A stretch of DNA of 47,865 nt, taken from positions 1 to 47,865 of the forward strand of contig CAJVPI010000158.1 of NCBI GenBank assembly GCA_910592345.1. The letters are read 5' to 3'. Positions 1,551-44,710 of this stretch are shown one piece after another (positions within the stretch are counted from its first letter, which is position 1; every line of letters begins with the position of its first letter). The notes beneath the pieces are model-generated. The model searched no databases. It saw nothing but the letters and a program-made list of their open reading frames with translations, and was not told where the DNA came from. The stretch comes from Paraglomus brasilianum (lineage: Eukaryota). The position numbers and the translations under genes are program-made.

Positions 1551-4500
1551 TTAGTAAACGGTTGAATACGTCCAAGATTCTGAATCTACATAATCACCGT
1601 TATATTTCTGATGTAGCACAAGTTCTCTTACATTCATTGCATAGGTATCATTTGGACTGATTTCCAATACTCTATTAAGATCGATCAATGCCTTTTCATA
1701 GTTCTTGAGCTCGTAATAAATGACTCCTCTTAGTCTCAATGAGTCTGTATTAGTTGCGTCACGACGTAGTGCCCTATTGATATCTCCCAACGCGAGATCA
1801 TGACTATTACGGTAATAGTGGACAGTTGCCCTTACTCTTAATGCGAATGAATCGGCTCTTCGCCACAGTGATTTGTTGAGATCGGTCAATGCTTTGTCAT
1901 ACTGCGTGAGCTGGCAATAAACATCGCCTCTTACTGCTAGTACCCATACATTGAGAGGATTATATGACAACGATTTGGTGAGATCGTTCAAAGCATTGTC
2001 ATAATCTTTAAGTTGATAATAAGCGTGTCCCCTTCTGCCCAATGTCCACGCATCAAGCGGTTCAATGTTTAGCGATTTGTTGAAATCTAAAAGAGCTTTA
2101 TCGTATTGCTTAAGCCAACAATAGGCATTTCCTCTTTTCTTCAATGAAAATGCAACATTTGGTTCAATTGCCAATGATCTGGTAAAGTCATTTAATGCAT
2201 ATTCATACTTGGTGAGTTGATGATAGACATCTCCCCTAATCCTCAATGCATATGCATCATTCGGTTCAATCTCTAACGATTTAGTAAGATCAGTCAATGC
2301 ATCGTTATAATGCCTGAGATTGCACTGTACACATCCCCTTCTACTCAATGTCAACGCATCATTCGGTTCAATTTGCAACGAATTATTGAAATGAGTCAAT
2401 GCATCGTTATACCTTTTAAATTGAATGTTGATATCTCCTATCTGACTCAATGTTCGTGCATTGTTTGGTTCAATAAGTAATGATCGTTCGAAATCAAGCA
2501 GTGCATCGGTGTAACGTTCGCGCATATAATATATATCACCTCTTGCTCTCAACGCCCATACATTATTCGGTTCAATACTTATTAGTAAATTGAGACTTAT
2601 TAATGCTTCGTCATACTGATAAAGTAAATAATGCACCTCTCCACTTTTACTCAATGCAAATGCATCATGCGGTTTAATCTTTAACGATTTGTTGAAATCA
2701 CCCACTGCATTGTCATACTCATTAAGCAAACTATGAACATATCCCCTTCTACTCAATGTCCATGCATCATCTGGTTTAAGTTCTGATGCCAAATTGAGAT
2801 CATTCAATGCTTTATCATACTCATTAAGCATGCAATAAGTATGTCCTCGTTTACTCAACGCCTCTGCATCATTCGGTTCGATATCTAATAGTGCATTAAG
2901 ATCATTCAATGCATTCTCATGTTGATCAAGTGTGTAATAAATCTCACTTCTTTTAGCTAATGCCCATTTATCGCCTGGTTCCATCTCCAACGCCATATTA
3001 AGATCGTTCAATGCATTGTCATTTTGGTTGAGCTTGTAATAGATATATCCTCTTTTGCTCAACGCAAATGCATTATTTGGTTCAACCTTCAAGAATTTGT
3101 TGAGATCTGCCAAAGCCTTGCTGTATTGATTGAGCATGAGATATACATTTCCCCTAGCTCTAAATGTCCATACATTATCTGGTTCCATCTTCAATAATGC
3201 ACTAAGGTCATTCAATGCATTGTGATATTGATTGAGCATGCAATAAGTTTCACTTCGCTTAGTCAATGTCCATTTATCACTTGGTTCAATTTCTAAAGAC
3301 TTGTTTAGGTCACTTAATGCAATATCATACTGTTTGAGTATGTAATGAATGTCTCCTCTTTTTCTCAATGTAAATGCACAATCCGGTTTAATATTCAATG
3401 TTTTGTTAAAATTCGCCAACGCTTCATCATACCGATTGAGTAAATAATATACGTATCCCCTTCTGCTCAATGCCCAAGCATCATCTGGTTCAATCACCAA
3501 TGCCATATTGAAATCGTTCAGTGCATTGTCATATTGATTGAGCGTGCAATAGACATATCCCCTTTTGTTTAATGTCCATGTATCATTTGGTTTAATTTCT
3601 AAAGATTTGGTAAAGTCACTTAATGCACTGTCATATTGCTCAAGCATGGAATGTACATATCCTCTTCTACTTAACGCGATCGTATCGTTTGGTTCAAGCG
3701 TTAACAACTTGTTAAAATCAGCCAACGCTTTAGCATAACGACTAAAGACATAGTAAAGACAACCCCGTTTACTTAACGTCCATGTGTCATCTGGTTGAAT
3801 TAACAGTGATTTATTGAAATCGTCTAGCGCTTCATGATATTTATCAAGCCTGTAGTAAACATGTCCCCTTCTGCTCAGCGTCCAAGCATTATCTGGTTCG
3901 ATTTGTAAAGACCTGTTGAGATCTACCAACGCAATTTCGTATTGATCAAGCTCGCGATATATGTTTCCCCTTCTACTCAATGCAAATGCATCATTAGGCC
4001 TAATTTCTAATGCTTTGTTGAGATCAACCAATGCCTTGTAATACTGACTAACCGCAAAATGCACACATGCCCTTTTGCTCAAAGTCCATACATCATTTGG
4101 TTTGATTGCCAATGATTTGTAGAGATCATCCAATGCATCTTGATGCTGATTAAGTCTGTAGTAAATGTGTCCTCTTCTACTCAATGTCCATGCATCGTAT
4201 GGGTCGATTTGTAGAGCTTTATTGAAATCACTCAATGCATTGTCATAACGTTCAAGCACGTAATATATATTTCCTCTCCTACTTAGTCCGACTTTGTCAT
4301 TAGGATTAATTTCCAACAGCTTATTGAAATCCTCCAATGCTTTGTCGTATTGGCCAAGTATATAGTACACACGTCCCCGTCTGTTTAGCGTCCAAATATC
4401 ATCCGGTTGAATCAATAATGATTTGCTGAAATCATCTAATGCATCGCGATGCCGATTAAGCCTGCAATTGACATATCCCCTTCGGCTCAATGCCCATGCA

Positions 4501-7215
4501 TCATCTGGCTTGATCTTTAATGATGTATTTAAATCATTCGATGCATTGTCATAATTCTTAAGCATACAATAAACATATCCTCTTTTGCTTAAGGCAAACA
4601 CATTATCTGGTTCAATCTTCAATGATTCATCAAGATCTTTTAATGCATTATTATATTGATTAAGCATACAATAAGCATGTCCTCTTCTGCTCAATGCAAA
4701 TGCATTATTTGGTTCAAACTCCAAGGCTTTGTCGAGATCTGCCATAGCATTGTCATATTGATCAAGCATGCAGTAAGCATGTCCTCTTTTCCCAAGTGCA
4801 AGAATATTATTTGGTTCAATCTCCAATGACTGACTAAGATAGTCCAATGCATCATCATACTGATCAAGCTGACAATAAAGATCACCTTTAAGTCTCAATA
4901 CCCAGCTATTTTTTGGTCTGATCACTAATGACTTGTTGAGATCTTTCAATGCACTGTCATAGTCCTCAAGATGATAGTAGACGCATCCCCGTCTGCTCAA
5001 TGTCCATGCATCATCCGGCTCAATGTCCAGTGATTTATCGAGGTCAGTTAATGCATTGTCATAATTCTTGATCCGGATATAGACATTTCCTCGTATACTC
5101 AAAGCAAATGCATCGTTCGGTTCAAATTTTAATGAACTGTTGAGATCATCAAGCGCATTATTATAACGACCAAGCATATGGTAGACGTTTCCTCGTATAC
5201 TCAAAGTAAACGCATCATGTGGTTCAATCTCCAGCGATTTGCTAAGATCTTTCAATGCATCGTAATATTGGTTTAAGTAATAATGGACATTTCCCCTTAT
5301 ACTCAACGCGAATGCATTATCCGGTTCAGCTTCCAATGATTGATTGAGATCCTTCAACGCGTCGCCATAGTTTTTGAGATTGCAATAGACAGCTCCTCGT
5401 TTGCTCAACGTCCATGCATCATTTGGTTCACTCTCCAGTGACTTGCTTAAATCGTTCAATGCATCGTAATGACGATTGGACATGCGATATACATTTCCTC
5501 TTACACTCAATGCATATGCATTATTTGGTTCAATCCTCAATGCCAGGTTGAGATCATCTAATGCTTTGGCATCTTGATCAAGCATGTGATAAACAAATCC
5601 CCTTCTACCCAATGCCCATACGTTGGATGGTTCAAGCTTTAATGTCTTGTTGAAATCATTTAATGCATTGTTATACAGCCTGATTGTACAATAGACATAT
5701 CCTCTTCTGCTTAGTGCAAATATTTTATTCGATTTGATTTCCAATGATCTATTCAAATCGTTCAGCGCGTTCGCATACTGATTAAGCATGTAATGGGCAT
5801 ATCCTCTCCTACTCAATGCAAAAGTATTATTGTCCGAGTTAACCTCCAATGATCTGTTAAAATCTTTTAATGCATTATCATACTGTCCGAGCATATAATA
5901 GACATGCCCTCGTTTGTTCAATGTCCAGACGTCATCCGGCTTAATCTCTAATGATTTGTTGAGATCATAAAATGCCTGGTCATGCTGATCAAGCCAGTAG
6001 TAGACATACCCCCGTCTACTCAACGTCCGTGTGTCATCTGCTTTAATCTTTAACGATTCATTAAAATCATATAGTGCAGTTTTATATTGATTGAGCTTGC
6101 GATAAATATCTCCTCTTCTGCTCAATAGATATGAATCATTTGTTTTAGTTTCCAACAGTTTATTTAGATGATTTAATTTCTGCAACAAGGTTAGTTGGTC
6201 ATACACTTCTTTACATGATGGCCGCTTATCGGGAATTTTGTCCCAGCATGCTGAGTATAGTTTGACGTATAGTTCAGGTGTTCCAGAACAAATGGATTTA
6301 TGGTTCTGAGTAAGTCCTCTGTATGGAAGTTTTCCACTAGAAATCTCCCAGAGTATTACTCCGAGGCTAAAGATGTTGGAACTATTCCTATGCTCACATA
6401 AAGTGTTCTCGACCAAAGCACCAATGTCATCTTGATTCTTGGACGTTGGACTAGCGTGTACCAACGTTGTTAGCAAATCAAAAGTCGATATTTTTGCTAC
6501 TCCCCTTTGGATAAGGATACTTTCGGAAGACTAAATTAAATTAGATGAATTAATATATCATACGCATTCTAATACACACGAAACAAAGAAAGTTTTATAC
6601 CAAGTTCTTGTGAATGATGTCAAGTTCATGTAAATATTTTATTCCATTGGTAATTTCCAGGCCAAGTTTGTACTTGTCTTTCCATGTCAAACTATCAAAG
6701 CTATTTGCCAAGTGTTCACGTAAACTTCCACCATCAGCAAAATTGAAAACTAGTTTAAAATTATCATGTCGATCTATCACATGAAATGAGATTAGTTCGT
6801 ATGCACCACAAAACTAGTCTCGAATATAATTAACGTACAGTACGTACCTATTAATAGACTTGAAAATCGAATGATGTTGGGATGATCATTTACCCGCTTA
6901 TGGTAATCCAACTAATGAGCGATGATTAAAATTAATATACAAGTCAGTTTCGTAAACATAGACAATAAGAACAAACGGTATGAAATCGATAACCACCTCT
7001 TTGACAAATTTGCTCAGTAGTTCGTCTTTACGATGCCCGTCTTTATTCAAGAAGAAAGACGTCTCTTTTATTGTAACAGCCATTCCAGAATGCTTCATTA
7101 TCGCCTTACGTATACTCCCATAGTCATCAGGTATAATTATGTCATTTTCTGAACAACAATCGACTGATCCATCCGTAACACTTTTGTTCAGCCACTCTTG
7201 TAAATTGCAAGACAT
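1551..7215 (-). CDS. TKL-type pseudokinase fused to 44 TPR repeats (~1811 aa, 4 exons)
   Basis: Exons 7215-6997, 6911-6848, 6773-6601, 6530-1551 join in frame through GT-AG introns. Kinase motifs are VTIK, HPNIIRF, HKNL (for HRD), SSESILI, KISTFDL (for DFG), SNIFSLGVILWEISSG and CW..P..RP, followed by 34-aa TPRs. Confidence 0.9.
1648..6134 (-). repeat. Coding tandem array of 44 TPR units (102 nt each)
   Basis: Counted 44 units of consensus (A/V)(W/F)(A/T)LS(R/K)RGxxYxxLxQYDxALxD(L/F)NKSLxIEPxD, all within one exon. Confidence 0.92.
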
Positions 7216-9322: not shown

Positions 9323-12300
9323 ATGTCTCGGAACCAAGTGGTCGACAATATGTATGAAGAATGTTTAAAACAAAGCGTACAGGAAGGGTTAGTTGCCTGC
9401 TATTCAGAAAATGATATTGCCTTAAGCCCTACGCCTATTAGTAGTGGTGGCATTAGGACATACAAGGCAGTGTTGAAGCGCTCTGGAACACCCGTTGCGA
9501 TCAAGACTCTGGTGGAGGGCTATTGCAACTGTACAAAAGAATTAAGCATGGAGCTTATCAAAGAGGTTTTACGATTGGTGATGTCACTTATATTAACGTG
9601 TGCCCCATCTGTACTAACGAGTATTAATCCATTACCAGATGAGAATTCACAAGGAAATGAAGGGTCATCCAAATATCATTGCGTTTTTAGGCGTATACAG
9701 AGGTATAGTCGTCTTATCTTACTAATAAATAATTAAAATGATACAGGCTAACTCATTTCACATTGTAGGCGACTATGGTGACTATCAACTAATTTTTGAA
9801 TTTGCTGAAAGTGAGACTCTACATATGTACTTGATGGATCACTTTGATGAGTTAACGTGGAAAGACAGGTGTAATCTTGGCTTGGATGTTACTAGTGGAC
9901 TGAAATATTTGCATGACCATGGTATAATCCACAGGGATTTGGTATTTATCACATTAATATTGATTATATCTCTGTATTAGTATATAGTAATATATTTTTA
10001 CTTATTTTGTACATTATTATTTTTGTTTGTTTTAGTCATCTAAAAACGTTCTGATTAAATCTGGCATTGCAAAATTGAGTGGATTTGGTCTATCATATGT
10101 ATTGACATTAAAACAAATGGTATTTGATGGGCAACACAAAGTATGCAAAGCTGAAGCATCCTTTAAATCTGACATTGTTAATCTTGTGAGAATTCTTTTG
10201 GAAATCTCAACTAAGGAGACATCATTTAACCGGCAGACTGAGTATTATCAAGTTACTTCAGATGGAATACCTGTTGAATACATCATGTTCTGTTTAGACT
10301 GTTTATTTTGGAATAGAGGACTTTTTCATGGCAGACCATCCTGTGAAAATGTTTATAAAAAATTGCAAGAATTTTACAAGCACAACGCAATAAATTTAAG
10401 TAGTTATCTTATTCAAGATACAGAAGCAAAGGGCTTGACAAAGGCTTTAGAGGATTCTTTTAGTATTAGCTTGAATCTTAGCAATAACAAGATTGGAAGT
10501 GAAAGTGCAGGCTTGGTAGTTTTAATAAAGGCTCTAGAATCAACATCTATTATTGTCTCTTTGAATCTTGAATACAATTGCATCAGAGATATGGATGCAA
10601 TAATTTTGGCTAAGGCTCTAGATTCCAATACTTCTTTGGCTTGCTTGAACCTCAGTGCTAACCAAATAGGTGATGCTGGATGTATAGCATTAGCAAAAGT
10701 TCTGGAATCAAACTCCTCTCTAAAATACTTGGATTTGAGTGAGAATAAGATTGGAGATATGGGTGCTGCAATGTTAGCAAAGGCTTTGGTTTTAAATTCA
10801 TTAATTTATCTCAACATCCAATTGAACAGGATTGGAGATAGTGGAGCAGCAGCTTTAGGGGAAGCTCTAGAGTCAAATTCTTCTCTAATTTCTTTAAATC
10901 TTGCATTTAATAAGATTGGCAACACTGGAGCATCAGCTTTGGCAAAGGCTCTGGAGCTGGATATCACTCTGGTATTTTTAAATTTATATTATAATCAGAT
11001 TGGAGATGCAGGAGCTACAGCCTTGGCAAAGGCTTTTGCATCAAATAGGCATCTTGTAATTTTGAATTTACAACTAAACAAAATTGGAAATACAGGAATG
11101 ACTGGTTTTTCTGGAGCCTTCACACAGGATTCCAAACTGATTTCTTTACATTTACAATCAAATTATATTGGAGATTTAGGAGCAATAGCTTTGGGAAAAG
11201 CTCTCAGTTCCAAATTGCCTTCTCTGACTTTTTTGAATCTAAAGTTGAACCAAATTAAACATGCAGGTGCAACTGCTTTGGGAAAAGCTATTGAGTTTAA
11301 TAGGAGATTAATTTCTTTGAATTTGTGTCAGAATGAGATTGAAAGTACAGGTGTAAAAGCGCTGGCAAAAGCTTTACAGTTAAGTTCCTCTTTGATCTCT
11401 TTGAATCTTAAGGCAAACAGAATTGGAATTACTGGAGTGAAATATTTGGCAGCTGCTCTAGGGCACAATTGTACTTTATCTATTTTAAATCTCAGTAGGA
11501 ATTATATTAAAGATGTAGGTGCATCAATTTTGGCAAATACATTGAAACTCAATTCTTCCTTGAACTCTCTGAATCTTAGTGAGAATTATATTGGATATGC
11601 GGGAGTAGCAGCATTGGCAGGGGCTCTAAAAGTCAATTCTTCTTTGGTTTCTTTGAATCTCAGCAACAATAATATTGCAGATGAAGGGGCATCAACTCTG
11701 GCAAAAGCTCTAGAATCAAACTCCTGTTTGATATTTCTAGACCTAGAAGAAAATAATATTCAAAGTAAAGGAGCAATAGCTTTGGCACAGTCTTTAAAAC
11801 ATAATTCTTGTTTGATGTTTTTAAATCTATCTTATAATGCTATTAGAAATAATAGTGCTACAAATACAAACTTGATAAAAGCTCTAACATCAAAGTCAAG
11901 TCTGTTCACTTTAAATATATCTCATAATAAGTTTGATGCCAAAAATGCAGCAACCTTGGCAAAAGTGATAGAATCAAAGTCCTTCCAAAAGTTTTTAAAG
12001 ATAGAGAAAAAAATTGGAGATGCAGGAGCAGTTACTTTGGCACAGATTCTAAAATCAGGCACTCATTTGAGCTCTCTAATGCTAATTGACAATATGATTG
12101 GACCTTTGGGTGCAACAGCTTTGGCAAAGGTTGTACAATATTCTTCTTTGACTGTTCTGAATCTTAGTCTGAATAATATTGGGGTAAAAGGAACAATGGC
12201 ATTAGCAAAAGCTTTAGAGTTTAACTCTTCTTTGGCTGTTTTGAACCTATCTTGTAATGGGATTGGAGGTGAAGGAGCAAAATTTTTGGCAAAGGTCTTA

Positions 12301-23633: not shown

Positions 23634-24374
23634 TTAATAACCAGTCGATGGTGGCCGGTCAAGTGTACGTCCAGTTCGTTGGCCGTCATATGCAGGATCA
23701 TCATTATCATCATCGCAATCATCGCCATGACTGCTTCCAAGGCGGTATGCGTTTCGATACGGCCGCCCTCGTAGACCTCTCGCCTCACCCTCCATCGGAA
23801 CCAGTCCTTCCATTTCCGGTCTTTCATGCTCTTCCTGCAGTTTATCTTCCTCCTCCTCCTTCTTTTTCTGCTCTCGATGTTCTCTTCTTTGATTTGCAAG
23901 AATGCTCCTCCTTCTCCTATTATCCCAGTCCTCCTCGACTTCTCTCTTGACTCTCTCTTCATATGCTTTGGCTTCAATTTTCTCTTTCTGCATCATTCGA
24001 TCTGCCGTCTCTCTTCTCGCCTCGGCCTTTTGATGAAACTCATTTAATAAACTTTGTGCAATCTTCAGCTTGTTTGTATCCATTCGATCATTCTCGAGAG
24101 TGAACGACTCTTTGAACGAGACCACTTTTTTTTTAAATCCAAGTGCAAAAAGAAAATCAAGCCCACCGTCGACTTCACAGACATCCCTCCTTAACCTGGC
24201 ATTTTCTGAGGGTAAGGAACGATATTTCGGAACGTCCGGATTTGAGAGGATGTTGTCAACTACTTTTTGGAGTATTTTCACACAGTTGGAAGCAACGATG
24301 GGATCTTTGTTGTGAGTGATTTTTTTCAAAAGTATATCGTGAAATTTTTTGTGAATTAAGTCTGAAGATGTCAT
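23634..24374 (-). CDS. PUB-domain protein (p97/Cdc48 adaptor-like) with charged coiled-coil tail
   Basis: ILQKVVDNILSNPDVPKYRSL...N...GGLDFLFALGF is a PUB signature; single-exon 246-aa ORF. Confidence 0.82.
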   Translation of the reverse strand: MTSSDLIHKKFHDILLKKITHNKDPIVASNCVKILQKVVDNILSNPDVPKYRSLPSENARLRRDVCEVDGGLDFLFALGFKKKVVSFKESFTLENDRMDTNKLKIAQSLLNEFHQKAEARRETADRMMQKEKIEAKAYEERVKREVEEDWDNRRRRSILANQRREHREQKKKEEEEDKLQEEHERPEMEGLVPMEGEARGLRGRPYRNAYRLGSSHGDDCDDDNDDPAYDGQRTGRTLDRPPSTGY

Positions 24375-28715: not shown

Positions 28716-31700
28716 ATGGACTATCAGTATTCGGGGCTAGCAGACACTTTGGTATGTTCGATTGTACCTAGGCATGTTCGTTTCGTTGTACTTATCACTT
28801 ATACGAATGCCCTTTATTAATATCTAAATAAATGATTATTATATTAATTTCGTTAGGAAATTGAACAACCTTCATCCTCAAATACCAAAAACAAAGGGAA
28901 AGAGAAGCAGCTTGAAAATGCAGAGACTAACTATGGAGCTGAGGGAAATCTCATTGTCTTTGAAAGTGACAGCAACAATAGCAATAGTGATTATGAACAA
29001 ATGTTTACCATAAACATGAGCAAGGATGAATTAGATAAACAATTGACTACATCCTTAGAATCAATTGTCAACAGCAATGACAGAATCAGTCATCTGATTA
29101 AATTATCCAATCTGTTGCTATCATCTGGTACCAAGTTAGCAAATAATCAATTGAGAAATGTTTTGAGAACAATCGGAACTAACATTGCATATGAGGATTA
29201 TGATGTGACCACTGGTATTGAATTTGAACTGCATCTTAGAACATATGTATTAGCATTGGAAATTTATTGCAGGCAACCTCATAAGATGAGAAAGGAGTTC
29301 CATGGAGTTTTGTATGAAAATCTTGCAAAATTACATGAGGTTCATCAATCTTACATCAGAGCCCTAGAAAATGGCTTAAACCCTACATGTAGCTTATTTG
29401 CTAATTTGCAAGGAAGTGCTAAAGTTCAAAATTACAACAGTGATTTTTTACTCCTGCATCTTTATGATACTCTTCATATAATGGATGATGATAAAAGTGT
29501 TTGGCTTGAAATTTTAAACCAACTCAAGACTTTGCTTGCTACATTAGTTGAGGCTTTGCCTGGTATGACTGGTATTATGTCAACTGCAGAGGCCCCAATT
29601 GATAATAAAGCTACTATAGGAATTTATAACAATATCCACAAGACCTTACAATCAAAGTTTTCTGTGGGACATTGGTACAAGGATTGGAGATATTTATATT
29701 GCATTTATCAAGCATTTGTTGAATGGTCAGCTGCTCCAATTCATAAGAAACTAGTTGTCAAAGGAGAATTGATGCTTATAAAGGATCTATGGAGGTTTGG
29801 AGACCAAGAATGGAATAAAGCAGTTTCAGCAAAATCAGAAATAGATGGATATAACAATAAATTTAAAATAAAGGGCATGCTAAATTATGTCCCAGAATCA
29901 AATCCATATTCTTTATTGTTTGGTATATTGGAAATTGCTCAAAATCTTATAAACTCTACAAAAAATATTAGTACCTTAGCTCATTGTTACTATATTGCAA
30001 AACTATCTCTGGACATAGTACAAACAGAATTTATTCAGTTTAAAGCAATTGAAATTCTAATTACTCTCTATAAAAAAGATTCAACTATGTTTTCTGTTGT
30101 ACAAATTGACCTAGATCAGCATGCTGAAGGTTTTTCTACCTTGGACCAAGGTAAACAATTTAAAGACATGAGAGAATACATTGATAAAAAATATACATAC
30201 ATTAACCAGGCAAACAGCAGAACAAGTATTGAAACATCAGTCTCAAGACAGAAAACAAAGCTTTCAGACAAGAGACCTGAAGAACTTTTTGATTCAAGCC
30301 CAAATGATTTATTAATCTTAGATGTGATTGCAGATCATCTTACATGTCCATTTACACAAGAAGTTACAGAAGATTTTAGAATGCTTCCATGTGGACACAA
30401 AATCAGTTATATGGCATTAGAAACGTTCATGAGGATGAACTATCTTGAACTTAAATGCTTTTATTGTAGAAGGAAATTTCAATTGGAAGATACTGACAAA
30501 ATACCAAGCTCACCAATTTACAAATCATTGTATGAAAAATTTGTCAAAGCTGGACATATTGCACCAAGAGCTCAATTAAAAGAATTTATACAACATGACA
30601 CAAGAGATTTTACAGCCATTGTGAAGAGTCAGAATGATGATGATAATGATGATGTTGAGAAATCTTTTATTATAAAATCAAAATTTTTACACTTGCTTAC
30701 AATGAAACCAAAGAAAACAATTTTACAAACAATAAGGAGACCAAAAAGGCTACATCCTGCATACAAGCAAGGTAAGAAAGCTCTGGATGAAAAAAGATTT
30801 AATGATGCAATATTATGGCTAGAAAGAGCACTTTTACATTATCCCAACAGTGCAACCATTCAAATTGATCTGGCTGTTGCATACATGGAAAATATAGACT
30901 ATAAAAAATGTTATGATTATATAACTCAAGCTATCAAAAATAGCCCTAACAATGCTAGAGCATGGGCATGGCGTGGAAAGTATCATGTGCAGCAATCAGA
31001 GTACAGACAAGCTCTTAAGGATCTTAAACAGTCATTGAGGATTAATGCAAGTGAAGCACTTGCATTAAAAACCAGAGGACATGTCTATTACATGCTCTAT
31101 CAGTATGATTTGGCATTGAATGATTTTAATCAATTATTAGAAATTGAACCAAATAATACAATTGCATTAAGAACAAGGGGGAAAATTAACTCTACACTTG
31201 ATGAGTTTAACAATGCACTAAGAGATTTTAATAAATTACTGGAGATAGAACCAAATGATACAGACATACTGCTTGCAAGGGGCATTGTCCATCTTAATCT
31301 TTGTCAATACAAGAATGCACTGAGAGACCTTAATACATTATTGCAAATTAAACAAATAACTACAATGGTACATCATCTAAGAGGATTAGTTTATCTCATG
31401 CTTGAGCAGTATGATTATGCATTGGTTGATCTTGATAAATCATTGGAGATTGATCTAAGTAATTTTAATATTAACCAGTATGAAAATGCATTGAGTAAGT
31501 TGAATAAACTTTTAAATACTGAACCAGATAACACATGTGCATTAAGAGTAACAGGAAAGATCTATTATGCACTCAGACAATATGACAATGCATTAGCTTA
31601 TTTTAGTAAGTTATTAGAAGTTCAACCACAGGGAAATGTAGATACACTGAATATACGAGCAGCTGTCTATCTTGATCTTTGTCAGTACAATGAAGCACTG

Positions 31701-32978
31701 GATGACATTAGTAAGTCATTAAACATCAATCCAGATGAAACTCTTTACAAACAGTTAGAATATTTGTTTAATCAATTAAAAGCACCTACTCACACGAGTC
31801 AAAATCAATGTTTATCATTGAGCTTCAGTCAATATATGATTAGAAATACTGAAGCAATGGTTTTAGCAAAAATTTTAAAATTGAATCTCCCTTTGCTTTC
31901 TCTGGATCTTTCAAATAATCGAATTGGAGACACAGGAGTAACAGCTCTGGCAAAGGCTCTAGAATCAAATTCCTCCCTGATTTCTTTAAATCTTGGTAGT
32001 AATAAGATTGGAGAAACAGGAGCTACAGCTTTGGGAAAGGCTCTAGAATCAAATTCATCTCTGGCTTCTTTGGACCTTGGTAGTAATATGATTGGAGAAA
32101 CAGAAGCTACAGCTTTGGGAAAGGCTCTAGAATCAAATTCATCTCTGGCTTCTTTGAATCTTAATTATAATCAAATTGGAGATACAGGAGCAACATCTTT
32201 GGCAAAAGCTCTAGAATTAAATTCATCTCTGGCTTCTTTAAAGCTTGGTTATAATCAAATTGGAGATACAGGAGCAACATCTTTGGCAAAGACTCTAGAA
32301 TCAAATTCTGTCCTAACCTCTTTAAATCTATATGGAAATCGGATTGGAGCTACAGGAGCAACAGCTTTGGCAAAGACTCTAGAATCAAACTCCTCCCTGA
32401 CTTCTGTAAATCTATATGGAAATTGGATTGGAGATACAGGAGCAACAGCTTTGGCAAAAACTCTAGAATCAAATTCCTCCCTGACTTTTTTGAATCTTGG
32501 CAGTAATATTATTAGAGATATAGGAGCAATAGCTTTGGCAAAGGCTCTAGAATCAAATTCCTTCCTGATTTCTTTAAATCTTGGTAGAAATATGATTGAA
32601 GATACAGGAGCAACAGCTTTGGCAAAGACTCTAGAATCAAACTCCTCCCTGACTTCTTTGAATCTTGAGTATAATCAAATTGGATATACAGGAGCAACAG
32701 CTTTGGCAAAAACTCTAGAATCAAATTCCTCCCTGACTTCTTTGAATCTTAGCAATAATAAGATTGGAGATACAGGAGCAATAGCATTGGCAAAGGCTCT
32801 GGAAACAAATTCTTCCCTGACTTCTTTGAATCTTGACAGTAATAAGATTGGAGATACAAGAGTAGCAGCTTTGGCAAAAACTCTAGAATATAGAATCAAA
32901 TTTCTCCCTGGTGCGCCGAAATCTGTGTGTTATATTTCACGTTTGCATAGTGAATTAAGATCCTTATATTCCTTATAA
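28716..32978 (+). CDS. Multidomain protein: unknown helical N-terminal domain, degenerate RING/U-box, ~9 TPR, 12 LRR (~1385 aa)
   Basis: Exon 28716-28751 (MDYQYSGLADTL, GTATGT donor) joins in phase 0 to exon 28857-32978; a further upstream exon is possible. CPFT...PCGHKIS...CFYC at 30345-30467, TPRs at about 30755-31740, 84-nt LRRs at 31893-32910. Confidence 0.88.
31893..32910 (+). repeat. High-identity 84-nt coding tandem repeat (12 LRR units)
   Basis: ATTGGAGATACAGGAGCAACAGCTTTGGCAAAG(G/A)CTCTAGAATCAAA(T/C)TCCTCCCTGA recurs nearly verbatim every 84 nt. Confidence 0.93.
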
Positions 32979-34069: not shown

Positions 34070-35276
34070 ATGTCCAACGATTCATACAAACAATGGCTAG
34101 AAACAAGCATTCGGGAAGGTTCAATTTATTGCTGTCCAGAAAGTGACATAAAACTAGACCCCCACTATATCGGCAAAGGAACATTTGGAGTGGTATTCAA
34201 GGCAACGGTGAAACAGAAAAACAGTATAATTGCCAAGGCAATCAGGAGTAAAAAACAGAACATTCTGTCCGGTATGACTGTTGCGGTGAAGACATTCTTT
34301 GATAAACATAACGGTTGTAAGGAGGAAGATTTGTACCGAAGTTTTGTCAAAGAGGTTTGTTATCTCAACCATATTATTGTCAAAGGCCACCCGCATTCAT
34401 AGTTGTGATAGAGACTGATTTTTGATATGAATTGTACGTTAGCTAAAACACCACCAGCAGGTGAACGATCATCCCAACATTATTCGTTTTCTAGGTCTAT
34501 ACAAAGGTATGTTAATACATGGTTATCTGATAAACTAATATATTTACGAGAAGGTTGGCAACAACCACACTGGGATATTTATTCACGGTTTATTGATGAA
34601 ACAGACAGGTTAGATAAATATCATATGATATTCGAACTAGCTGAAGGTGGAACTTTGTACAACCACCTGAGAGGACACTTCAATGATTTAACCTGGGAAG
34701 ATAAATATGCCTTAGGCTTGGGAATTACTAATGGCTTGAAATATCTGCATGAGCTTAAGATTATTCACAAGGATTTGGTACTTATCAAATGTTGGCTGTA
34801 TTTTTGGTTGATGATTGTTAAAGTTATTTACATATCAAAAATCTTTGTTAATTTAGACGTCCTCCAATATTCTTATCCAATCGGGTGTCGCAAAGATAAC
34901 TGATTTCGGTTTGTCGACGGTACTGAAAAGAATCATGTCCTCATCACGTGGTGGAACTCCAGCATATAGGGATCCAGTATGTTTCAAAGACTTGAAATAC
35001 AAGCGTCGAAAGGAATCCGACATCTTTAGCCTTGGGGTGATACTGTGGGAAATTTCTAGTGGAAAAAACCCATGTGAAGGACGTACTGAAAGTACTACAA
35101 TAATTTTATATAGAAGGGATGGTTTTCGAGATCCTCCAGTTTCTGGAACACCTGAAGAATATGTTAAATTGTATTCAGAATGTTGGGATGAAGACCCAAA
35201 TAACCGGCCCGCCTGCGAACAGGTTTATGAGAGATTAATGAATTGTAGTAAGAATAATGCAAATACGGTGATGTGA
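34070..35276 (+). CDS. Catalytically intact TKL-type protein kinase, kinase domain only (~313 aa, 4 exons)
   Basis: Exons 34070-34354, 34443-34506, 34605-34777, 34857-35276. IGKGTFGVV, VAVK, FVKEL, HKDLTSSNILI, KITDFGLS, GGTPAYRDP, SDIFSLGVILWEISSG, CW..P..RP. Confidence 0.93.
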
Positions 35277-35431: not shown

Positions 35432-35900
35432 GGGTGACTAAAGCCTTTATCTCCTTGTAGATGACAACAATAATAGTGATGTCGATATCGTCGGAGGCAA
35501 ACGAAACGGGTTATATTTTGTATTGTTACGCACAACATAATTAATCTATTTATATTTATCATCTATAGGATAACAACCAGCAATTGCTGTTGTAGCCTTT
35601 TCAAATACATTCACTTTAATACGGTCACCACTCATTTCTTTCCATTGTATCCCACACTCGGATATAGCTCAGCTTTGGAAGTGGCCGGTTATAAAACCTA
35701 CGAAGAGTAGCTGGCAATTCTCGAAAAGGGCAAATTTCCAAACATAGTCATTGCAACCTGCAATTTGAATGGAAAGATCTGCTTTTTAAGGTCTCTTCTA
35801 GTTATAAGTTATATTATTAATAATAATTGACACAATTTACATACCAATAATAAACATCTACTCATTTTTTTAGCTTATTTTCTCTCGAATCGATATCCAA

Positions 35901-38757
35901 TTAGAACAAATAGACACTTTGAGTCAAAGGCAACTTGCTCATTGGCTCACAATCACACAGTTCTCCATCTACACTGACTGCATACGTTTCTGGGTCTACT
36001 TCTACTTTAGGCAATGCATCGTTCAATTTCATGTCCTTCTTTCCAATGCTCCTACACTTACTAACAGCCTCGACTCTCTTTTTCAAGCCATATTTTGCAA
36101 CCACGCCTCGCTCAATGGATGCTTTGCTTACGAAAGCAAGCGAGTTCTTGGAAGCTGCACTTGCATTAGCACCAAACATAGAACGGCCTATAATTGGTTG
36201 TGTGGTAGGAATAGATGCGTTGGCATCACCCATGTTACCCCAAACAATAATGCCCGATTTGATAACTAATTCTGGTTTAGTGCCAAAGAATGCCGGATTG
36301 AACATGGTCAGGTCTGCTATTTTACCAACTTCGATCGAGCCGATTAAGTGACCTACACCACACACAATTGCACTAAGGTTGAGAAGAATGTTGTGAGCGA
36401 GCGATAGAGGAAAAATGATTACGCTAAATTGTTTATTACGATATTAACTATTATTGATACTTACGGATTGATCGTATACTTGGCAACATATCTTCTGATT
36501 CTAAAGTTGTCCGCAGAACCATCTTCTTCGGTTCCCAACCTTCCCCTCTGTACTTTCATTTTGTGCGCAGTCTTCCACGTTCGAAGTACAACCTCCCCTA
36601 TTCTTCCCATTGCTTGCGAATCTGAACTGATGATACTAATAGCTCCAATATCATGCAATACATCTTCAGCAGCAATAGTCTCTGCTCTAATACGAGACTC
36701 GGCGAATGCAACATCCTCTGGAATGTTCTTGTCCAAATGGTGACATACCATCAACATGTCAACGTGCTCATCGAGAGTATTCGAAGTATAAGGTCGAGTC
36801 GGATTAGTAGAAGATGGAATAACGTTTGGCTCTCCGCACACGCGAATGATATCGGGCGCGTGTCCACCTCCTGCTCCTTCTGTATGATACGCATGAATGG
36901 TACGGTCCTTGAACGCGCCAATCGAATCTTCAACAAACCCAGACTCGTTCAACGTATCTGTGTGAATATTGACTTGTATATCGTACTCATCACCAACAGA
37001 TAAGCACGTGTCAATGGCGGACGGAGTAGTTCCCCAGTCTTCGTGGAGTTTCAGTCCCATTGCGCCAGCGACAATCTGTTCCTTGAGTCCTTCAGGAGAA
37101 GACGAATTGCCTTTGCCGGTAAACCCAAAGTTAAGAGGATAGTCGTCGGTTGAAGAAAGCATCATTTCAATGTGATGAGAACCAGGTGTGCAGGTAGTCG
37201 CGTTCGTGCCTGTGTTGGGACCCGTGCCTCCGCCTATGAGAGTAGTTATGCCTGATGAGAGCGCCTACAACAGAACCGGGACGTAAAGATGCAATTAGCA
37301 TAAAGCAAATGAATGAGTAAATCTTGTGAATCAATAAATAGACAACAGGGTAAATATTATGTGCTATCTATTACCTCCGGAAGTAGCTGTGGACATATAA
37401 AATGCACGTGTACATCTATAGCTCCAGCAGTAAATATATGTTTCTCCCCAGCAAGCGCTTCGGTAGTCGGACCAACAATCATTCCGGGAGTAACTCCATC
37501 CATCACGTCAGGATTCCCTGCTTTACCGATTCCAACTATAATTCCGTTCTTTATTCCAATGTCAGCCTAATAACAAAACATCATTAGTACGTTACAAACT
37601 GGATGCGGTGAACCGCAATAACAATTTATTCCAACCTTATAGATTCCAGTATAGTCTACTATGATAGCATTGGTTATAACCAAATCCAACGCGGCGTCAT
37701 CTCCAACTCCCGTTGCTTGTCCCATTCCTTCTCTTAGCACTTTTCCCCCGCCAAACTTGCATTCGTCTCCGTATACCGTATAATCCTTCTCAATCTCTAA
37801 CCACAAATCGGTATTTCCCAATCTGATTCTATCCCCGGTGGTAGGTCCATAAAAGTCAGCATATACTTTCCTTTCCATCGTGTATGGATAGACTCGTAAC
37901 GAGCCCTCGGTCTGAACAGTGTGAGAAAAGCCCTGTTTAACCAAGTCATCGACTATCTGAGTAAGTTTGCTTGAATTGACGTAACCAGAAGCAATGCCAT
38001 TGCCACCAGTGATGCGTTTTTTTCCAGCGATGGAGACGAGAGAAACTGTCTTGCTTTCACCCGGTTCAAAACGAATGGCAGTACCTGCGGGCACGTCGAG
38101 GCGTCTTCCATAAGCTAAAGAACGATCAAATGAGAGAGCTCGATTGGTTTCAATAAAGTGGTAATGGGAGCCCACCTATAAAGTAGAAATGCTGTTACCC
38201 ATCATACAGTCAATGACACCCATGAACGTATAGTACCAAGAATTCTTTCTCACCTGAACAGGTCTGTCGCCGTTATTAGTTACTCTAACGCCAATCCTCT
38301 CTCTTCCTTCATTCAGAACAATCATCCCCGGCCTAATCAAGTAAGCACCAGGGCCATGTTTGTCTCCCTTTTCATCCTCCAACTTAAACATATCATTACT
38401 AGGCACAGGAAGAAAGCTTCCGTACAGCGCCGATTCCAAATCCCCATCATCTGTACAAATAGGATCATGCACAGTCACCAAATAAGTTCCATCTGGAAAT
38501 GTGCCTTCTACTTGCACTTCTGCCAACGTATCCAGTACACCCGGTAATACATGTCGTCGTCCGAGCATTTGTTTGCCAACATTCATCAGATCAGCAACTG
38601 AATAAGTGCCATCACGGATGAATTCGAGAAGCTGTGAGGCAACGAGCGCTGTCGCTTCGGTATGATTGAGTTTCAGACCACGTGCAAGGCGTTTCTGAGC
38701 CAGAAAGCCTACTTGGTGGAGGACTAACTTATCTAATTCGCGTGGGACGAGTTTCAT
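35901..38757 (-). CDS. URE1: Urease, eukaryotic fused gamma-beta-alpha chain (~835 aa, 5 exons)
   Basis: Exons 38757-38254, 38175-37636, 37566-37375, 37264-36465, 36372-35901. [73 protein letters not shown]. Confidence 0.97.
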
Positions 38758-40015: not shown

Positions 40016-41171
40016 AAAAAAAAAAGAAAAAAAGCGGTGTGTTAGCTAGTAATATAATTAATTTACACAAATTTACATTCTTAAAAAGCGTAAAAGACCT
40101 GCAAAAAACTTTAGCTAAATATCTTGCTTTTTTTTTTTTTCTTTGAGAAACTAAAGTATAAGTTTATTTTATTTCAGTTGGTTGTCCACTGAAGTTATCC
40201 AACCTTCATCTCGTACTGAATGAATGGGCTTGCAGATAGATTATTATTAGCTGGTGCAAATAGTACAAGCTCTATCTCTAAATCTGGCAACATTAATACG
40301 TATTCCATTATTATTATTAGTCAATACATTAACAGCATGAAGGTTTTCTACACCAATATTTGCAGTAATGTTTTGTAATCCCCACTTCATACAAATATTA
40401 TAAAATTGGTCATCATAATGTGGCAAATAAGCGTTTGCTTTGCATATTTAAGAACTGACATAAGGGAGAAAAATTGTTTATATTGTAGAAATATAGTTTC
40501 TTAAAGCAATAAGTTACGTCACAGCATCTATAAATCATTCTGTCCATTCATTAATGCTCTGCGATTGTAGTTTGTTAGAACAGTAACAGTCCAGCCGTTG
40601 ACTAACCATGTCAAAAGCAAACGTAAAGCGGACAAACAGTTTGCTCATAGAGTAAAAATAAGGACGAAGTAAACGGCTTTATTTGCTAATATCTATTATA
40701 TTGTATTTTCTATTTTTGCCGATGCGCATACAAAGAATTCTTATAAATGCGATGAATCTAATAAAACGGTAAACACTTTACTTTAATATACCAAATACTG
40801 CCATTCTAAACCATTTTCTCTACATATTTGGATCCATAAAAGAAATGCGATGCACGATAATCATAGATTTTCTTTAAGGCATTTCTATTATTATGCATGT
40901 CATATAGGAAGCGTTTTTTATAAAGATTCTAAAATAATATTTATTGTAAATGCACGCAAAGTTCCATTCGTATGAATCATAAAGAGTTATTCACAGAACT
41001 TGTGTTATAACAAAGACAAATGATTTTTTACATTGCACTACGTTCAATTTGTTGTACAAAAAGTGAACTAGTACTAATTAGTTTAGGTGATGCCTATTGT
41101 TGACATAAAATCGTATATAATTACACCACCCACGGCCAAGTTTCGTGTGAGTTTTACGTACATACTTTGAG

Positions 41172-41810
41172 ATGAATCTGACCGAACATTTCCAATGCGG
41201 TGTGTGTGGAAATCTAAAGCCCAACCCTCAAGAAGCACAGTGTTGTCACAAACTCTTTTGCCTCGACTGTATCAAATGTACCGAAGATGACAAACACTGT
41301 CCAGCCTGTGGAGCAAACGCTAGCTTCTGCAACAATGTTTTTGCATCGAGAATAATCAACATTAAGCTCAAGGATGACATCAGGCCTAGCAACAATTCTT
41401 TACGATCGCTGGTCACTTCGATCAGTAATACTATTCGCCGTGCGTTTACTAATACCAACAACTCCCATTCTGATACTAATACGGATATCCCTGGCGCTTT
41501 TCCCATCACCGTGTTAACTTTGAATAACAAGAAAATCGATGTCATTGTCGAGAAAAGTGACTCGATCAATATTCTCAAGCTTAAGATTGAACAAAAAGAT
41601 GGTATGCGTTTCATGGGGGAGTGAGTGGGGTAGGGACAGAATCAAGATGAGTACATGCCAACAATAATTTATTTTTCCGTAGGCACTCCTCCGCAAGACC
41701 AGCGTTTAATTTTTCTAGGAAAACAACTAGAGGATCACCTGGCCATCTCGAACTATAATATTGAGAAAGGCGTGACTGTGCATCTCGTGCGTCGTTATCA
41801 GGGTGGCTAA
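41172..41810 (+). CDS. RING finger / ubiquitin-like fusion ending in Gly-Gly (~185 aa, 2 exons)
   Basis: Exons 41172-41601 and 41683-41810. [18 protein letters not shown], then [13 protein letters not shown]...[27 protein letters not shown]...[22 protein letters not shown]. Confidence 0.9.
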
Positions 41811-42730: not shown

Positions 42731-44710
42731 TTATTTTCCATTCAAAAGCCCGGCCCCCACCTCTTCGTCTTGGTCGTTATCGTCCTCCCGCCTTCTCTTC
42801 CTCATACTTTCACCACTCTCGTTCTCTATATCATCATCACTACTCCTTCGCTTCCCACTCTCTTGCCCGTCATCAGTCTCACTCTTTTCTGTCTCGTCAT
42901 CATCATACTCATCACCATTTCGACCATACATCGGATCGTCGTCATCACTAGCATGAACGGCTAACGGATCATCGTCTTCACGATTGATGAAATTAATCGC
43001 CAACGGATCATCCGTATCGTCGACTATACTGGGGCTATTCACCGCCAATGGATCGTCATTCGATGCGCTGTCGTTGGACTGGAGATCGGCATGAAGCGAA
43101 TTGTTGATATCACCTTGCATATCTTCATTCATATCCTTTGGAGTATCCTCTTCCATCATGTCACCGATTGGCTTATCGCTATCGTTCATTATTTCATCAC
43201 CCAGCACAGTATCGTCATCTGCGCCCCTTCCATCATCGCTTTCAACCGGTGTATTCGGAGAATCTTCATGGGAATGATCCCACGTTGACAACTCGGGCTG
43301 TTGATCATTCTCGTTTTCCTTTTCGGGTTCTTCCATTGCACTTCTCTGCTCGGGCGACTCGCTAACTTTATCGAGCGAAGAACTCCTAGACACAGAGTTT
43401 GTCGTATGACGCTCACTTGCGGACGCAGAGGATTGTGGAGACTGATGAGTAGAATGAGGACGAGGCTCAGTTGCGTAGTTTCCTCGATTGTTGTCAGAGT
43501 GTCGACGTTCACTATTTGAATGATTGTTCGTGTCATTCGTGTTATTCATTGAACGACGTCGATTAGTGTTATAATAATGTTCATCGCGTGACATATTGTC
43601 CCGAGAGTTTGAATTGTGATAACTGCTTCGTCTCCCTTCTCCATTAAAAGATCGTTCCCTTTCATCAACGTGACGCTCTCTATTCCTTGTATGATTTTCA
43701 CTGTAGTTTGATGAATGTTCGCGGTTATTGCGCTGACGACTATTATGTGATTTATCATCAGATCTCGAATTGACAACGTCGGCATGCTGAGTATTGGGCG
43801 AGTGAGGCCGTGCGTCTGGCATATCTATGTCTTCATCGGCCGTAAGATCCGATGATGCATTATCAACTGCTGAAAGAACTCGTTTGATTTGCAATTGTCG
43901 TTGGAGAACTTGGTCGTCGAGATTTCTGTCTTGTTGATCCAGTTCGGCTATTTTTTGTTCTAATTCATCTATCTCTCTAAACAATGTCGCTTATCAGAAA
44001 CAACATCAGAACTGCATAGGGGGGTTTTTTTTAACAAGGATACTCACTGCGTTAACTCTCTCCGGGACTTGTGTAATGATATATCCTTTGCTAAGCGATT
44101 GTATTCCTTCTTGTTTATTACTAATATCTCTTCCGCCCGTAATTCCTCTTCTAATTGAGCAATAGTTGCTTTTGCTTCTTCTATTTGAGCGGCTATATAT
44201 GAAAAAAGAACGTGAGATTATCCTTTGGTCATGAATTCGAATCTCTAAATTCATAAATTGCACGATAAGAGCTCTTATTTTGTTACTACCTACCAATCGT
44301 TTGAGATTCTTCTTCCCAGTGTATGTGCTCTCGTACGCTCATGTCATGAATCCGCTGAAAGCGCAACAGATTCTGTACATAGGTGTTGAAATCCAGTAAA
44401 AAGTCTGCACAACATTGTGACCTAATGTATACATACAAAGATTTAAACATACAGCGTGCTTTGGTAGTATTAATTTGTAATAAGGATCTCTCTTACGCTT
44501 CAGGGATCTGTCCTTTTATTAGCGAGTTCCTCCATGCCGCGTGTTTCTTGACGACTCGAAGAAGTTGACGCTCTTCCACCAACAGCCTATCACGAATTAG
44601 CTCTACCAATAGAGTGAGACAGTTCAGTAAGCAACCGTATGGACTGTATTGGCATAATTCACTTCAATAGAGAATAGATCTATCACACCTTCGTCTGCGG
44701 TACTACTCAT
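42731..44710 (-). CDS. THOC7: THO complex subunit 7 (THOC7/Mft1-like) with long low-complexity C-terminal extension (~548 aa, 5 exons)
   Basis: Exons 44710-44689, 44602-44497, 44421-44294, 44192-44048, 43976-42731. ELIRDRLLVEERQLLRVVKK, FLLDF...REHIHW, IEEAKATIAQLEEEL...NKKEYNRLAKDISLHKSRRELTQEIDEL resemble the THOC7 family. Confidence 0.72.

What the first reader, a model, noticed from the sequence alone, without database searches (positions are those of the whole stretch)
41172..41810. RING finger fused to a ubiquitin-like domain with a mature, exposed C-terminal Gly-Gly
Seen: the second exon, missed by the ORF track, completes a Ub fold ending [13 protein letters not shown]. By manual alignment to ubiquitin it keeps L8, I44, V70, R42, H68, R72 and six of seven lysines (K11, 27, 29, 33, 48, 63). 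The N-terminus is a complete C3HC4-like RING, joined by an S/N/T-rich linker. Known: integral UBL domains usually lack a terminal GG, and R72 determines activation by the ubiquitin E1. Inference: a conjugatable modifier carrying its own E3 domain, which could self-ligate or covalently tether a RING to targets. L73Y and R74Q may confer DUB resistance.
Basis: partly seen in the sequence, partly recalled or inferred. Interest (0 to 1): 0.78.

Follow-up and report, generated by a model that had tools for sequence, protein, structure and literature searches.

The report
Fungal RING ligase with ubiquitin mimic
A predicted two-exon gene of a mycorrhizal fungus joins a RING zinc finger to a ubiquitin-like domain ending in Gly-Gly, but its relatives in other species lack that ending, so the domain is likely a built-in, non-covalent binding module of a probable ubiquitin ligase rather than a tag that attaches the protein to targets.

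Summary
Exons 41172-41601 and 41683-41810 flank an 81-nt GT-AG intron and give a 185-aa RING-linker-UBL protein ending RRYQGG-stop, annotated in NCBI as Paraglomus brasilianum CAG8491378.1. The UBL aligns gap-free to ubiquitin and every residue claim checks. The RING has RBBP6-like Cys-Cys spacing, not plain C3HC4, and no linchpin Arg. Best reading (0.55): a small Glomeromycota RING E3 with a tethered non-covalent ubiquitin mimic, working like the UHRF1 UBL. E1 charging of this one protein remains possible; RING-driven conjugation is predicted to be poor. Exon 1 lies in four RNA libraries; no contig crosses the intron. The scan noted a similar architecture before in Pandoravirus (Gly-Asp ending); I found no sequence link. 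No description of this family turned up in the papers searched.

The parts
41172..41601 (+). Exon 1: RING, linker and ubiquitin-like positions 1-34 plus the first base of Gly35
   Evidence: RNA-library contigs identical to it between 41166 and 41504 in 4 of 4 runs
41196..41309 (+). RING core, residues 9-46, C-x2-C-x11-CC-x4-C-x2-C-x9-C-x2-C; all 8 Cys invariant; Gly at the linchpin position 47
41310..41369 (+). Conserved post-RING segment (residues 47-66; invariant S51 F52 N55 F57 A58 I62 N63), likely the flanking helix
   Evidence: helix is inference
41370..41498 (+). Variable linker (residues 67-109) with an amphipathic stretch at residues 75-92 (41394-41447); about 22 residues shorter in two Paraglomus-type homologues
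41499..41601 (+). Ubiquitin-like domain, first part (ubiquitin positions 1-34)
41602..41682 (+). Predicted 81-nt GT-AG intron, phase 1 in the Gly35 codon, in-frame TGA at 41622-41624
   Evidence: homologous gene calls P0005, P0002 and P0010 read into an insertion at the same KDG site; no RNA contig crosses it
41683..41810 (+). Exon 2: ubiquitin-like positions 35-76 and stop
   Evidence: Pfam ubiquitin E 1.7e-11 alone
41790..41810 (+). Tail codons R71 R72 Y73 Q74 G75 G76 and TAA stop
   Evidence: identical in L001; homologues end SG or GS

Best explanation
The gene encodes a predicted 185-residue protein in which a RING zinc finger likely acts as a ubiquitin ligase module and the attached ubiquitin-like domain likely works as a tethered, non-covalent ubiquitin mimic rather than as a tag that is conjugated. 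Shown: the two domains, the family in Paraglomus and Funneliformis, retention of the I44 surface, loss of the I36 patch and of a conserved tail. Inferred step 1: the RING binds two zinc ions and recruits an E2 loaded with ordinary ubiquitin. Inferred step 2: the UBL, on a 40-68 residue tether, docks by its I44 patch, most likely on the E2 backside, and stabilises the active E2-ubiquitin state, which could make up for the missing linchpin Arg; docking on a ubiquitin receptor (proteasome, UBA or similar) is the second option. Inferred step 3: the Gly-Gly of P. brasilianum is the leftover ancestral ubiquitin end; one Gly was lost in each of the two other lineages. Substrate unknown; no signal peptide or substrate-binding domain is evident in the sequence.
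For: Terminal GG in 1 of 6 complete proteins. Across P0004/3/8/9, 37 of 70 core UBL positions are invariant against 1 of 6 tail positions. R42, I44, G47, K48, Q49, H68, V70 in 6 of 6 and L8 in 5 of 6; I36 is Thr in 6 of 6; 71, 73 and 74 are non-native in 6 of 6. True ubiquitins behave differently: 79 of 80 in-register viral ubiquitin frames keep LRLRGG. Backside ubiquitin binds through the I44 patch and ubiquitin lacking GG still stimulates RING discharge (PMC6349121 passages). The UHRF1 UBL stimulates its own RING in this way (PMC6242706 abstract). The RING Cys residues and the L-K-P-N-P stretch are invariant over 5 sequences; RING/U-box structural neighbours at TM 0.71-0.81. 49% identity to a Funneliformis protein over the whole length with intact frames.
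Against: The core-versus-tail contrast is not significant (Fisher p 0.20). All 6 complete proteins stop exactly at position 76, keep R72 and end in only Gly or Ser, which suggests some constraint on the tail; only 6 of 80 viral ubiquitin frames stop at 76. Ser75 is tolerated by E1 and E2, so all 3 Paraglomus-type proteins may still be chargeable. Linchpin is Gly in 2, Gln in 3 and Arg in 3 of 8 RING sequences, and the Pro before the last Cys pair is Ser in Funneliformis, so ligase activity may be weak or absent. Only two lineages were sampled. E2-backside binding rests on analogy alone.
Confidence: 0.55

Rival explanations
1. One reading: E1 activates the whole protein through its Gly-Gly, an E2 accepts it, and its own RING ligates it to targets, planting an E3 on them.
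For: Mature GG-stop confirmed in two assemblies; R72, R42 and the I44 patch kept; E1 is relaxed at 71/73/74; precedent for a large protein conjugated by a C-terminal UBL: chicken OASL (PMC8764230 abstract and results section 18). By parsimony on the tails the ancestor ended Tyr-x-Gly-Gly (inference).
Against: 0 of 5 homologues keep GG; 3 of 5 end in Ser76. Non-native 74/75 block E2-to-E3 transfer. I36 patch lost; Ub I36A discharges more slowly. Linchpin Gly. OASL keeps a full LRLRGG.
Confidence: 0.15
2. E1/E2 trap: in Paraglomus the protein is charged, loaded on an E2 that its RING also binds, and stalls there because the tail cannot be discharged; Funneliformis members would be non-covalent decoys. 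It would act as an inhibitor of one E2 pathway.
For: The tail pattern (R72 fixed, 74 non-native, Gly or Ser at 75, Gly76 in 3 of 3 Paraglomus-type proteins) matches variants that load on E1 and E2 but do not pass to E3s. Missing linchpin fits binding without activation.
Against: Ser76 in 3 of 6 members; R72 invariance is unremarkable when half of the UBL positions are invariant (38 of 76); no natural precedent found in the papers read.
Confidence: 0.12
3. Non-catalytic adaptor or slowly drifting lineage-specific gene: the RING is only a dimerisation or scaffold module, and the UBL links a partner to the proteasome or p97 or makes the protein short-lived.
For: No linchpin Arg; RING below Pfam cut-off in this protein; patchy distribution (only two genera named among 3 searches); Rad23-like UBL score below cut-off; terminal GG is a degron for an animal ligase (PMC11568203 passages; not tested in fungi).
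Against: 28 of 66 RING-region columns invariant, including V11 in the first zinc loop; both domains equally conserved (37 of 66 and 46 of 76 against P0008); exon 1 present in RNA libraries.
Confidence: 0.18

Closest known systems
UHRF1 (integral UBL plus RING E3; PMC6242706, abstract read)
   Same: One chain holds a UBL and a RING; the UBL hydrophobic patch binds the E2 backside and is needed for ligase activity. This is the working model here.
   Different: UHRF1 is a large chromatin reader with the UBL at the N-terminus (domain order recalled); this protein is 185 aa, RING first, with a far more ubiquitin-like domain at the free C-terminus. Not a member.
PRC1 RING1/BMI1 proteins (N-terminal RING, C-terminal RAWUL; PMC2447854, abstract read)
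   Same: Same domain order, RING then C-terminal ubiquitin-like domain; RING2/BMI1 chains are among the profile hits.
   Different: No RAWUL hit at E up to 1; the UBL is 54% identical to ubiquitin and ends at position 76. Not a member.
RBBP6/Mpe1 (DWNN, zinc knuckle, RING; PMC1360078, passages read)
   Same: RING spacing C-x2-C-x11-CC-x4-C-x2-C aligns without gaps to the RBBP6 RING (3ztg, E 0.00056); RBBP6 too carries a UBL whose Gly-Gly is not kept in all organisms.
   Different: Reverse order, no zinc knuckle, no DWNN hit, K/R at the [NS] position, 9 rather than 12 residues before the last Cys pair.
Avian OASL (PMC8764230, abstract and section 18 read)
   Same: Enzyme with a C-terminal UBL ending in a free Gly-Gly; reported to conjugate to itself.
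   Different: Keeps full LRLRGG across birds; carries a synthetase, not an E3.
Pandoravirus RING-ubiquitin fusions (scan notes e1-624112, e1-624303; unchecked)
   Same: All-cysteine RING followed by a C-terminal ubiquitin domain whose last Gly is replaced.
   Different: Reported extra N-terminal beta-barrel and fixed Gly-Asp end; no viral relative found here; the fungal gene has an intron inside the UBL.

Membership tests
Conjugatable ubiquitin-type modifier | Ubiquitin fold | tested here: met
   Pfam PF00240 E 2.4e-20; gap-free alignment
Conjugatable ubiquitin-type modifier | Free C-terminal Gly-Gly in this protein | tested here: met
   (depends on predicted splicing)
Conjugatable ubiquitin-type modifier | Gly-Gly conserved across the family | tested here: not met
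   0 of 5 complete homologues
Conjugatable ubiquitin-type modifier | Arg72 for the ubiquitin E1 | tested here: met
   6 of 6; role from PMC3731359
Conjugatable ubiquitin-type modifier | I36/L71/L73 patch and Arg74 for E3-driven transfer | tested here: not met
   T36, R71, Y73, Q74; non-native in 6 of 6; roles
Conjugatable ubiquitin-type modifier | E1/E2 thioester and isopeptide adducts | not testable with these tools
   Needs biochemistry
RING-HC (C3HC4) E3 ligase | Eight zinc ligands in cross-brace spacing | tested here: met
   8 invariant Cys plus His26 in most; RING/U-box neighbours TM 0.71-0.81; homologue passes Pfam zf-C3HC4_3
RING-HC (C3HC4) E3 ligase | His as fourth ligand | tested here: inconclusive
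   His26 is Asn in P0009 while Cys24-Cys25 are invariant; RBBP6-type C4C4 fits as well; own models unusable
RING-HC (C3HC4) E3 ligase | Linchpin Arg after the last Cys | tested here: not met
   Gly47 here; Arg in 3 of 8, Gln in 3 of 8, Gly in 2 of 8; role
RING-HC (C3HC4) E3 ligase | Ligase activity with an E2 | not testable with these tools
   Needs biochemistry
RBBP6/Mpe1 | N-terminal DWNN and zinc knuckle before the RING | tested here: not met
   No such hits at E up to 1; definition
PRC1 RING1/PCGF | C-terminal RAWUL domain | tested here: not met
   No RAWUL hit among 19 families; definition
Works like UHRF1 UBL-RING | Intact I44-type hydrophobic patch on an integral UBL | tested here: met
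   I44, H68, V70 in 6 of 6, L8 in 5 of 6
Works like UHRF1 UBL-RING | UBL binds the E2 backside and stimulates the RING | not testable with these tools
Pandoravirus RING-ubiquitin family (scan notes) | N-terminal beta-barrel and Gly-Asp end | tested here: not met
   RING starts at residue 9; ends GG/SG/GS

The most novel reading that the evidence does not exclude
The Paraglomus protein is a natural E3-ubiquitin chimera that E1 charges through its own C-terminus and that ends up covalently on an E2 bound by its own RING, either trapping that E2 or being ligated to targets as a self-delivering E3; P. brasilianum keeps the ancestral Gly-Gly state, and Funneliformis shows the derived non-covalent state.
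Probability: 0.2. Interest if true: 0.75.

Novelty: new variant of a known kind. Interest (0 to 1): 0.38.

Why it matters
If the best reading holds, this is about the smallest natural RING-plus-ubiquitin-mimic ligase, a compact model for how a tethered ubiquitin tunes an E2, and a natural GG/SG/GS series for testing when a fused ubiquitin stops being chargeable. It adds an undescribed family to the ubiquitin system of arbuscular mycorrhizal fungi, but RING plus integral UBL is a known design. Only the covalent readings would be surprising, and the homologues argue against them.

Tried and rejected
Structure prediction failed twice: full length mean pLDDT 32.7, RING region 44.8; neither model was used or fold-searched. 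The profile search against all cluster representatives and the complex prediction (RING against UBL) were not available, so distant relatives and a RING-UBL contact remain untested. No whole genome is held, so paralogues, E1/E2 partners and synteny were not examined; within the window there is one copy. Viral origin: no phage match; no relative among 47 and 32 pattern matches in viral contigs; 0 of 81 ubiquitin-like frames from the best 80 of 598 viral ubiquitin loci carry a RING, a weak test because those loci were picked for closeness to ubiquitin. Metagenome scan: 2 of 288 stretches; L001 is the same gene, L002 an unrelated RING protein. RNA: no contig across the intron in 4 of 4 runs; the tool filters some records, so this shows nothing either way; one 86%-identical contig at 41679-41743 is from another gene or organism. 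Intron position: falls after base 103 of the ubiquitin frame, which I recall as the position of an intron in ubiquitin-ribosomal fusion genes; one search found no paper to confirm it. Rows dropped before the tail count: P0001 (unspliced call of this gene), P0002 and P0006 (gene calls that end before the UBL C-terminus), P0007 (tandem ubiquitin-like protein without RING). The family tree did not resolve the order within either genus group. PMC11499249 passages gave nothing on RING fusions.

Full report
Observation. The window reads ATG at 41172, a GT donor at 41602, an AG acceptor ending at 41682 and TAA at 41808-41810. Splicing gives 558 nt and a 185-aa protein ending HLVRRYQGG. The 81-nt intron is in frame but holds a TGA, so the unspliced frame stops at 150 aa. 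The cluster listing shows the same 185-aa protein in NCBI and UniRef as Paraglomus brasilianum CAG8491378.1 on a 47,865-base contig. A JGI contig (L001) is identical through both exons, the intron and the stop and differs only in the flanks. The C-terminal domain hits Pfam ubiquitin at E 2.4e-20 and aligns to ubiquitin without gaps (41 of 76 identical by hand count). Two it did not list matter: I36T and L71R.

Expression. Four rhizosphere RNA runs hold contigs identical to exon 1, all within 41166-41504. The same runs show 5 spliced joints in neighbouring genes, so they contain real transcripts of this organism or a close strain. The runs were found with this gene, only contigs are kept, and none crosses the intron, so splicing is supported by homology only: three homologous gene calls (P0002, P0005, P0010) run into an insertion at the same Lys-Asp-Gly site, and the frame resumes as ubiquitin-like after it in P0005 and P0010.

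Family. Three word-based searches gave 3 of 11, 7 of 44 and 6 of 590 candidates. They define a small family: P. occultum (P0003), unnamed metagenome records (P0002, P0005, P0006), Funneliformis geosporum (P0008, P0010) and F. caledonium/mosseae (P0009). Identity to P0008 is 49% over the full length. The ESM Atlas lists two clusters of 156 and 158 aa (94 and 62 members, taxa unrecorded, scores 0.93 and 0.92) in which most members carry ubiquitin and 29-37% a RING family; their sequences and tails could not be read.

The tail. Among 6 proteins with a complete C-terminus the last six residues are RRYQGG (this protein), ERSKSG (P0003, P0005) and KRYNGS (P0008, P0009, P0010). Gly-Gly is thus in 0 of 5 homologues. 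These are gene predictions whose DNA I could not view, but SG occurs in two independent sources and GS in records of three species. Across four representatives 37 of 70 core positions and 1 of 6 tail positions are invariant (p 0.20). For contrast, 79 of 80 in-register viral ubiquitin frames keep LRLRGG (1 further frame had no register). Against a wholly free tail: all 6 stop exactly at position 76, keep R72 and end in Gly or Ser. Shared Tyr73 and Gly75 between this protein and Funneliformis, and Gly76 in all Paraglomus-type proteins, suggest an ancestral Tyr-x-Gly-Gly end with one Gly lost in each of two lineages (inference; the tree separates the two genus groups but resolves nothing inside them).

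Surfaces. R42, I44, G47, K48, Q49, H68 and V70 are kept in 6 of 6 and L8 in 5 of 6. I36 is Thr in 6 of 6; positions 71, 73 and 74 are non-native in 6 of 6. The I44 patch is L8/I44/H68/V70 and the I36 patch I36/L71/L73 (PMC4822132 passages). RINGs contact the I36 patch of the donor ubiquitin (PMC8586995, PMC8897509, PMC6349121 passages). PMC3731359 (passages, summarising an earlier study that I did not read) states that E1 requires Arg72, is relaxed at 71, 73 and 74, accepts Ser75, that Ser75 still passes to E2, and that non-native residues at 74 and 75 block transfer from E2 to HECT and RING/U-box E3s. So this protein may be charged but is predicted to be a poor donor, and the Ser76 members should not be charged (established requirement for Gly76, recalled).

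The RING. The spacing is C-x2-C-x11-CC-x4-C-x2-C-x9-C-x2-C in 8 of 8 sequences. All eight Cys are invariant while His26 is Asn in P0009. The profile aligns without gaps through this stretch to the RBBP6 RING, whose published consensus has the same Cys-Cys spacing (PMC1360078 passages). The Atlas model of residues 1-68 matches RING/U-box models at TM 0.71-0.81; my own models failed. The linchpin position is Gly here. 'Complete C3HC4' is therefore imprecise, and ligase activity is likely but not certain. The linker carries an amphipathic stretch at 75-92 (2 of 2000 shuffles; weaker in Funneliformis, 138 and 112 of 2000; absent in the short-linker members).

Mechanism. The pattern (binding surface kept, donor surface lost, tail variable) fits an integral ubiquitin mimic. 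Backside-bound ubiquitin uses the I44 patch and works without its Gly-Gly, and the UHRF1 UBL stimulates its own RING that way (abstract). The docking site of the UBL (E2 backside or ubiquitin receptor) is inferred by analogy only.

Known kinds and novelty. RING followed by a C-terminal ubiquitin-like domain is known in PRC1 proteins (PMC2447854 abstract); a UBL with patchy Gly-Gly beside a Cys-Cys RING is known in RBBP6; conjugation through a C-terminal UBL is reported for chicken OASL. The protein fails the membership tests for each. Earlier scan notes describe a Pandoravirus RING-ubiquitin family ending Gly-Asp (unchecked); I found no viral relative. Paper searches aimed at this family or architecture returned 0 papers, 1 paper (listing only) and 7 papers (listing, one read in passages); none seen describes it. 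The library lacks most subscription journals and no supplements were read, so gene-family tables in genome papers may list it. Verdict: real, new variant of a known kind, interest 0.38; the covalent reading has probability 0.2 and would deserve 0.75.

Noticed in passing
window 29001-32978 (+): Single 1325-aa frame with an unassigned N-terminal half, TPR repeats and C-terminal LRR_6 repeats; a TPR-plus-LRR combination that may be a receptor-like protein.
   Followed up: partly
window 1551-5894 (-): Uninterrupted 1447-aa frame made almost wholly of TPR repeats (37 TPR_1 stretches).
   Followed up: no
window 10117-12816 (+): 899-aa LRR_6 (ribonuclease-inhibitor-type) repeat protein with an unassigned N-terminus.
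   Followed up: no
window 23634-24374 (-): PUB-domain protein (E 1.2e-15), a likely p97 cofactor, 17 kb from the RING-UBL gene; no link shown.
   Followed up: no
window about 35900-38757 (-): Urease gene (gamma, beta, amidohydrolase pieces); four introns are shown as spliced joints in RNA contigs.
   Followed up: partly
window 42731-44579 (-): THOC7-like gene (E 4.7e-08) with a spliced joint at 44419-44495, followed by a 419-aa low-complexity acidic/Arg-rich frame with no Pfam hit; it converges on the RING-UBL gene.
   Followed up: partly
window 34070-35276 (+): Protein kinase in several exons.
   Followed up: no
P0008 and P0010: Two Funneliformis geosporum records on different contigs, identical apart from a retained-intron insertion: duplicate or allele.
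   Followed up: no
L002 45-3089: Unrelated 1014-aa metagenome frame with a RING-like stretch near each end and repeated internal units.
   Followed up: no
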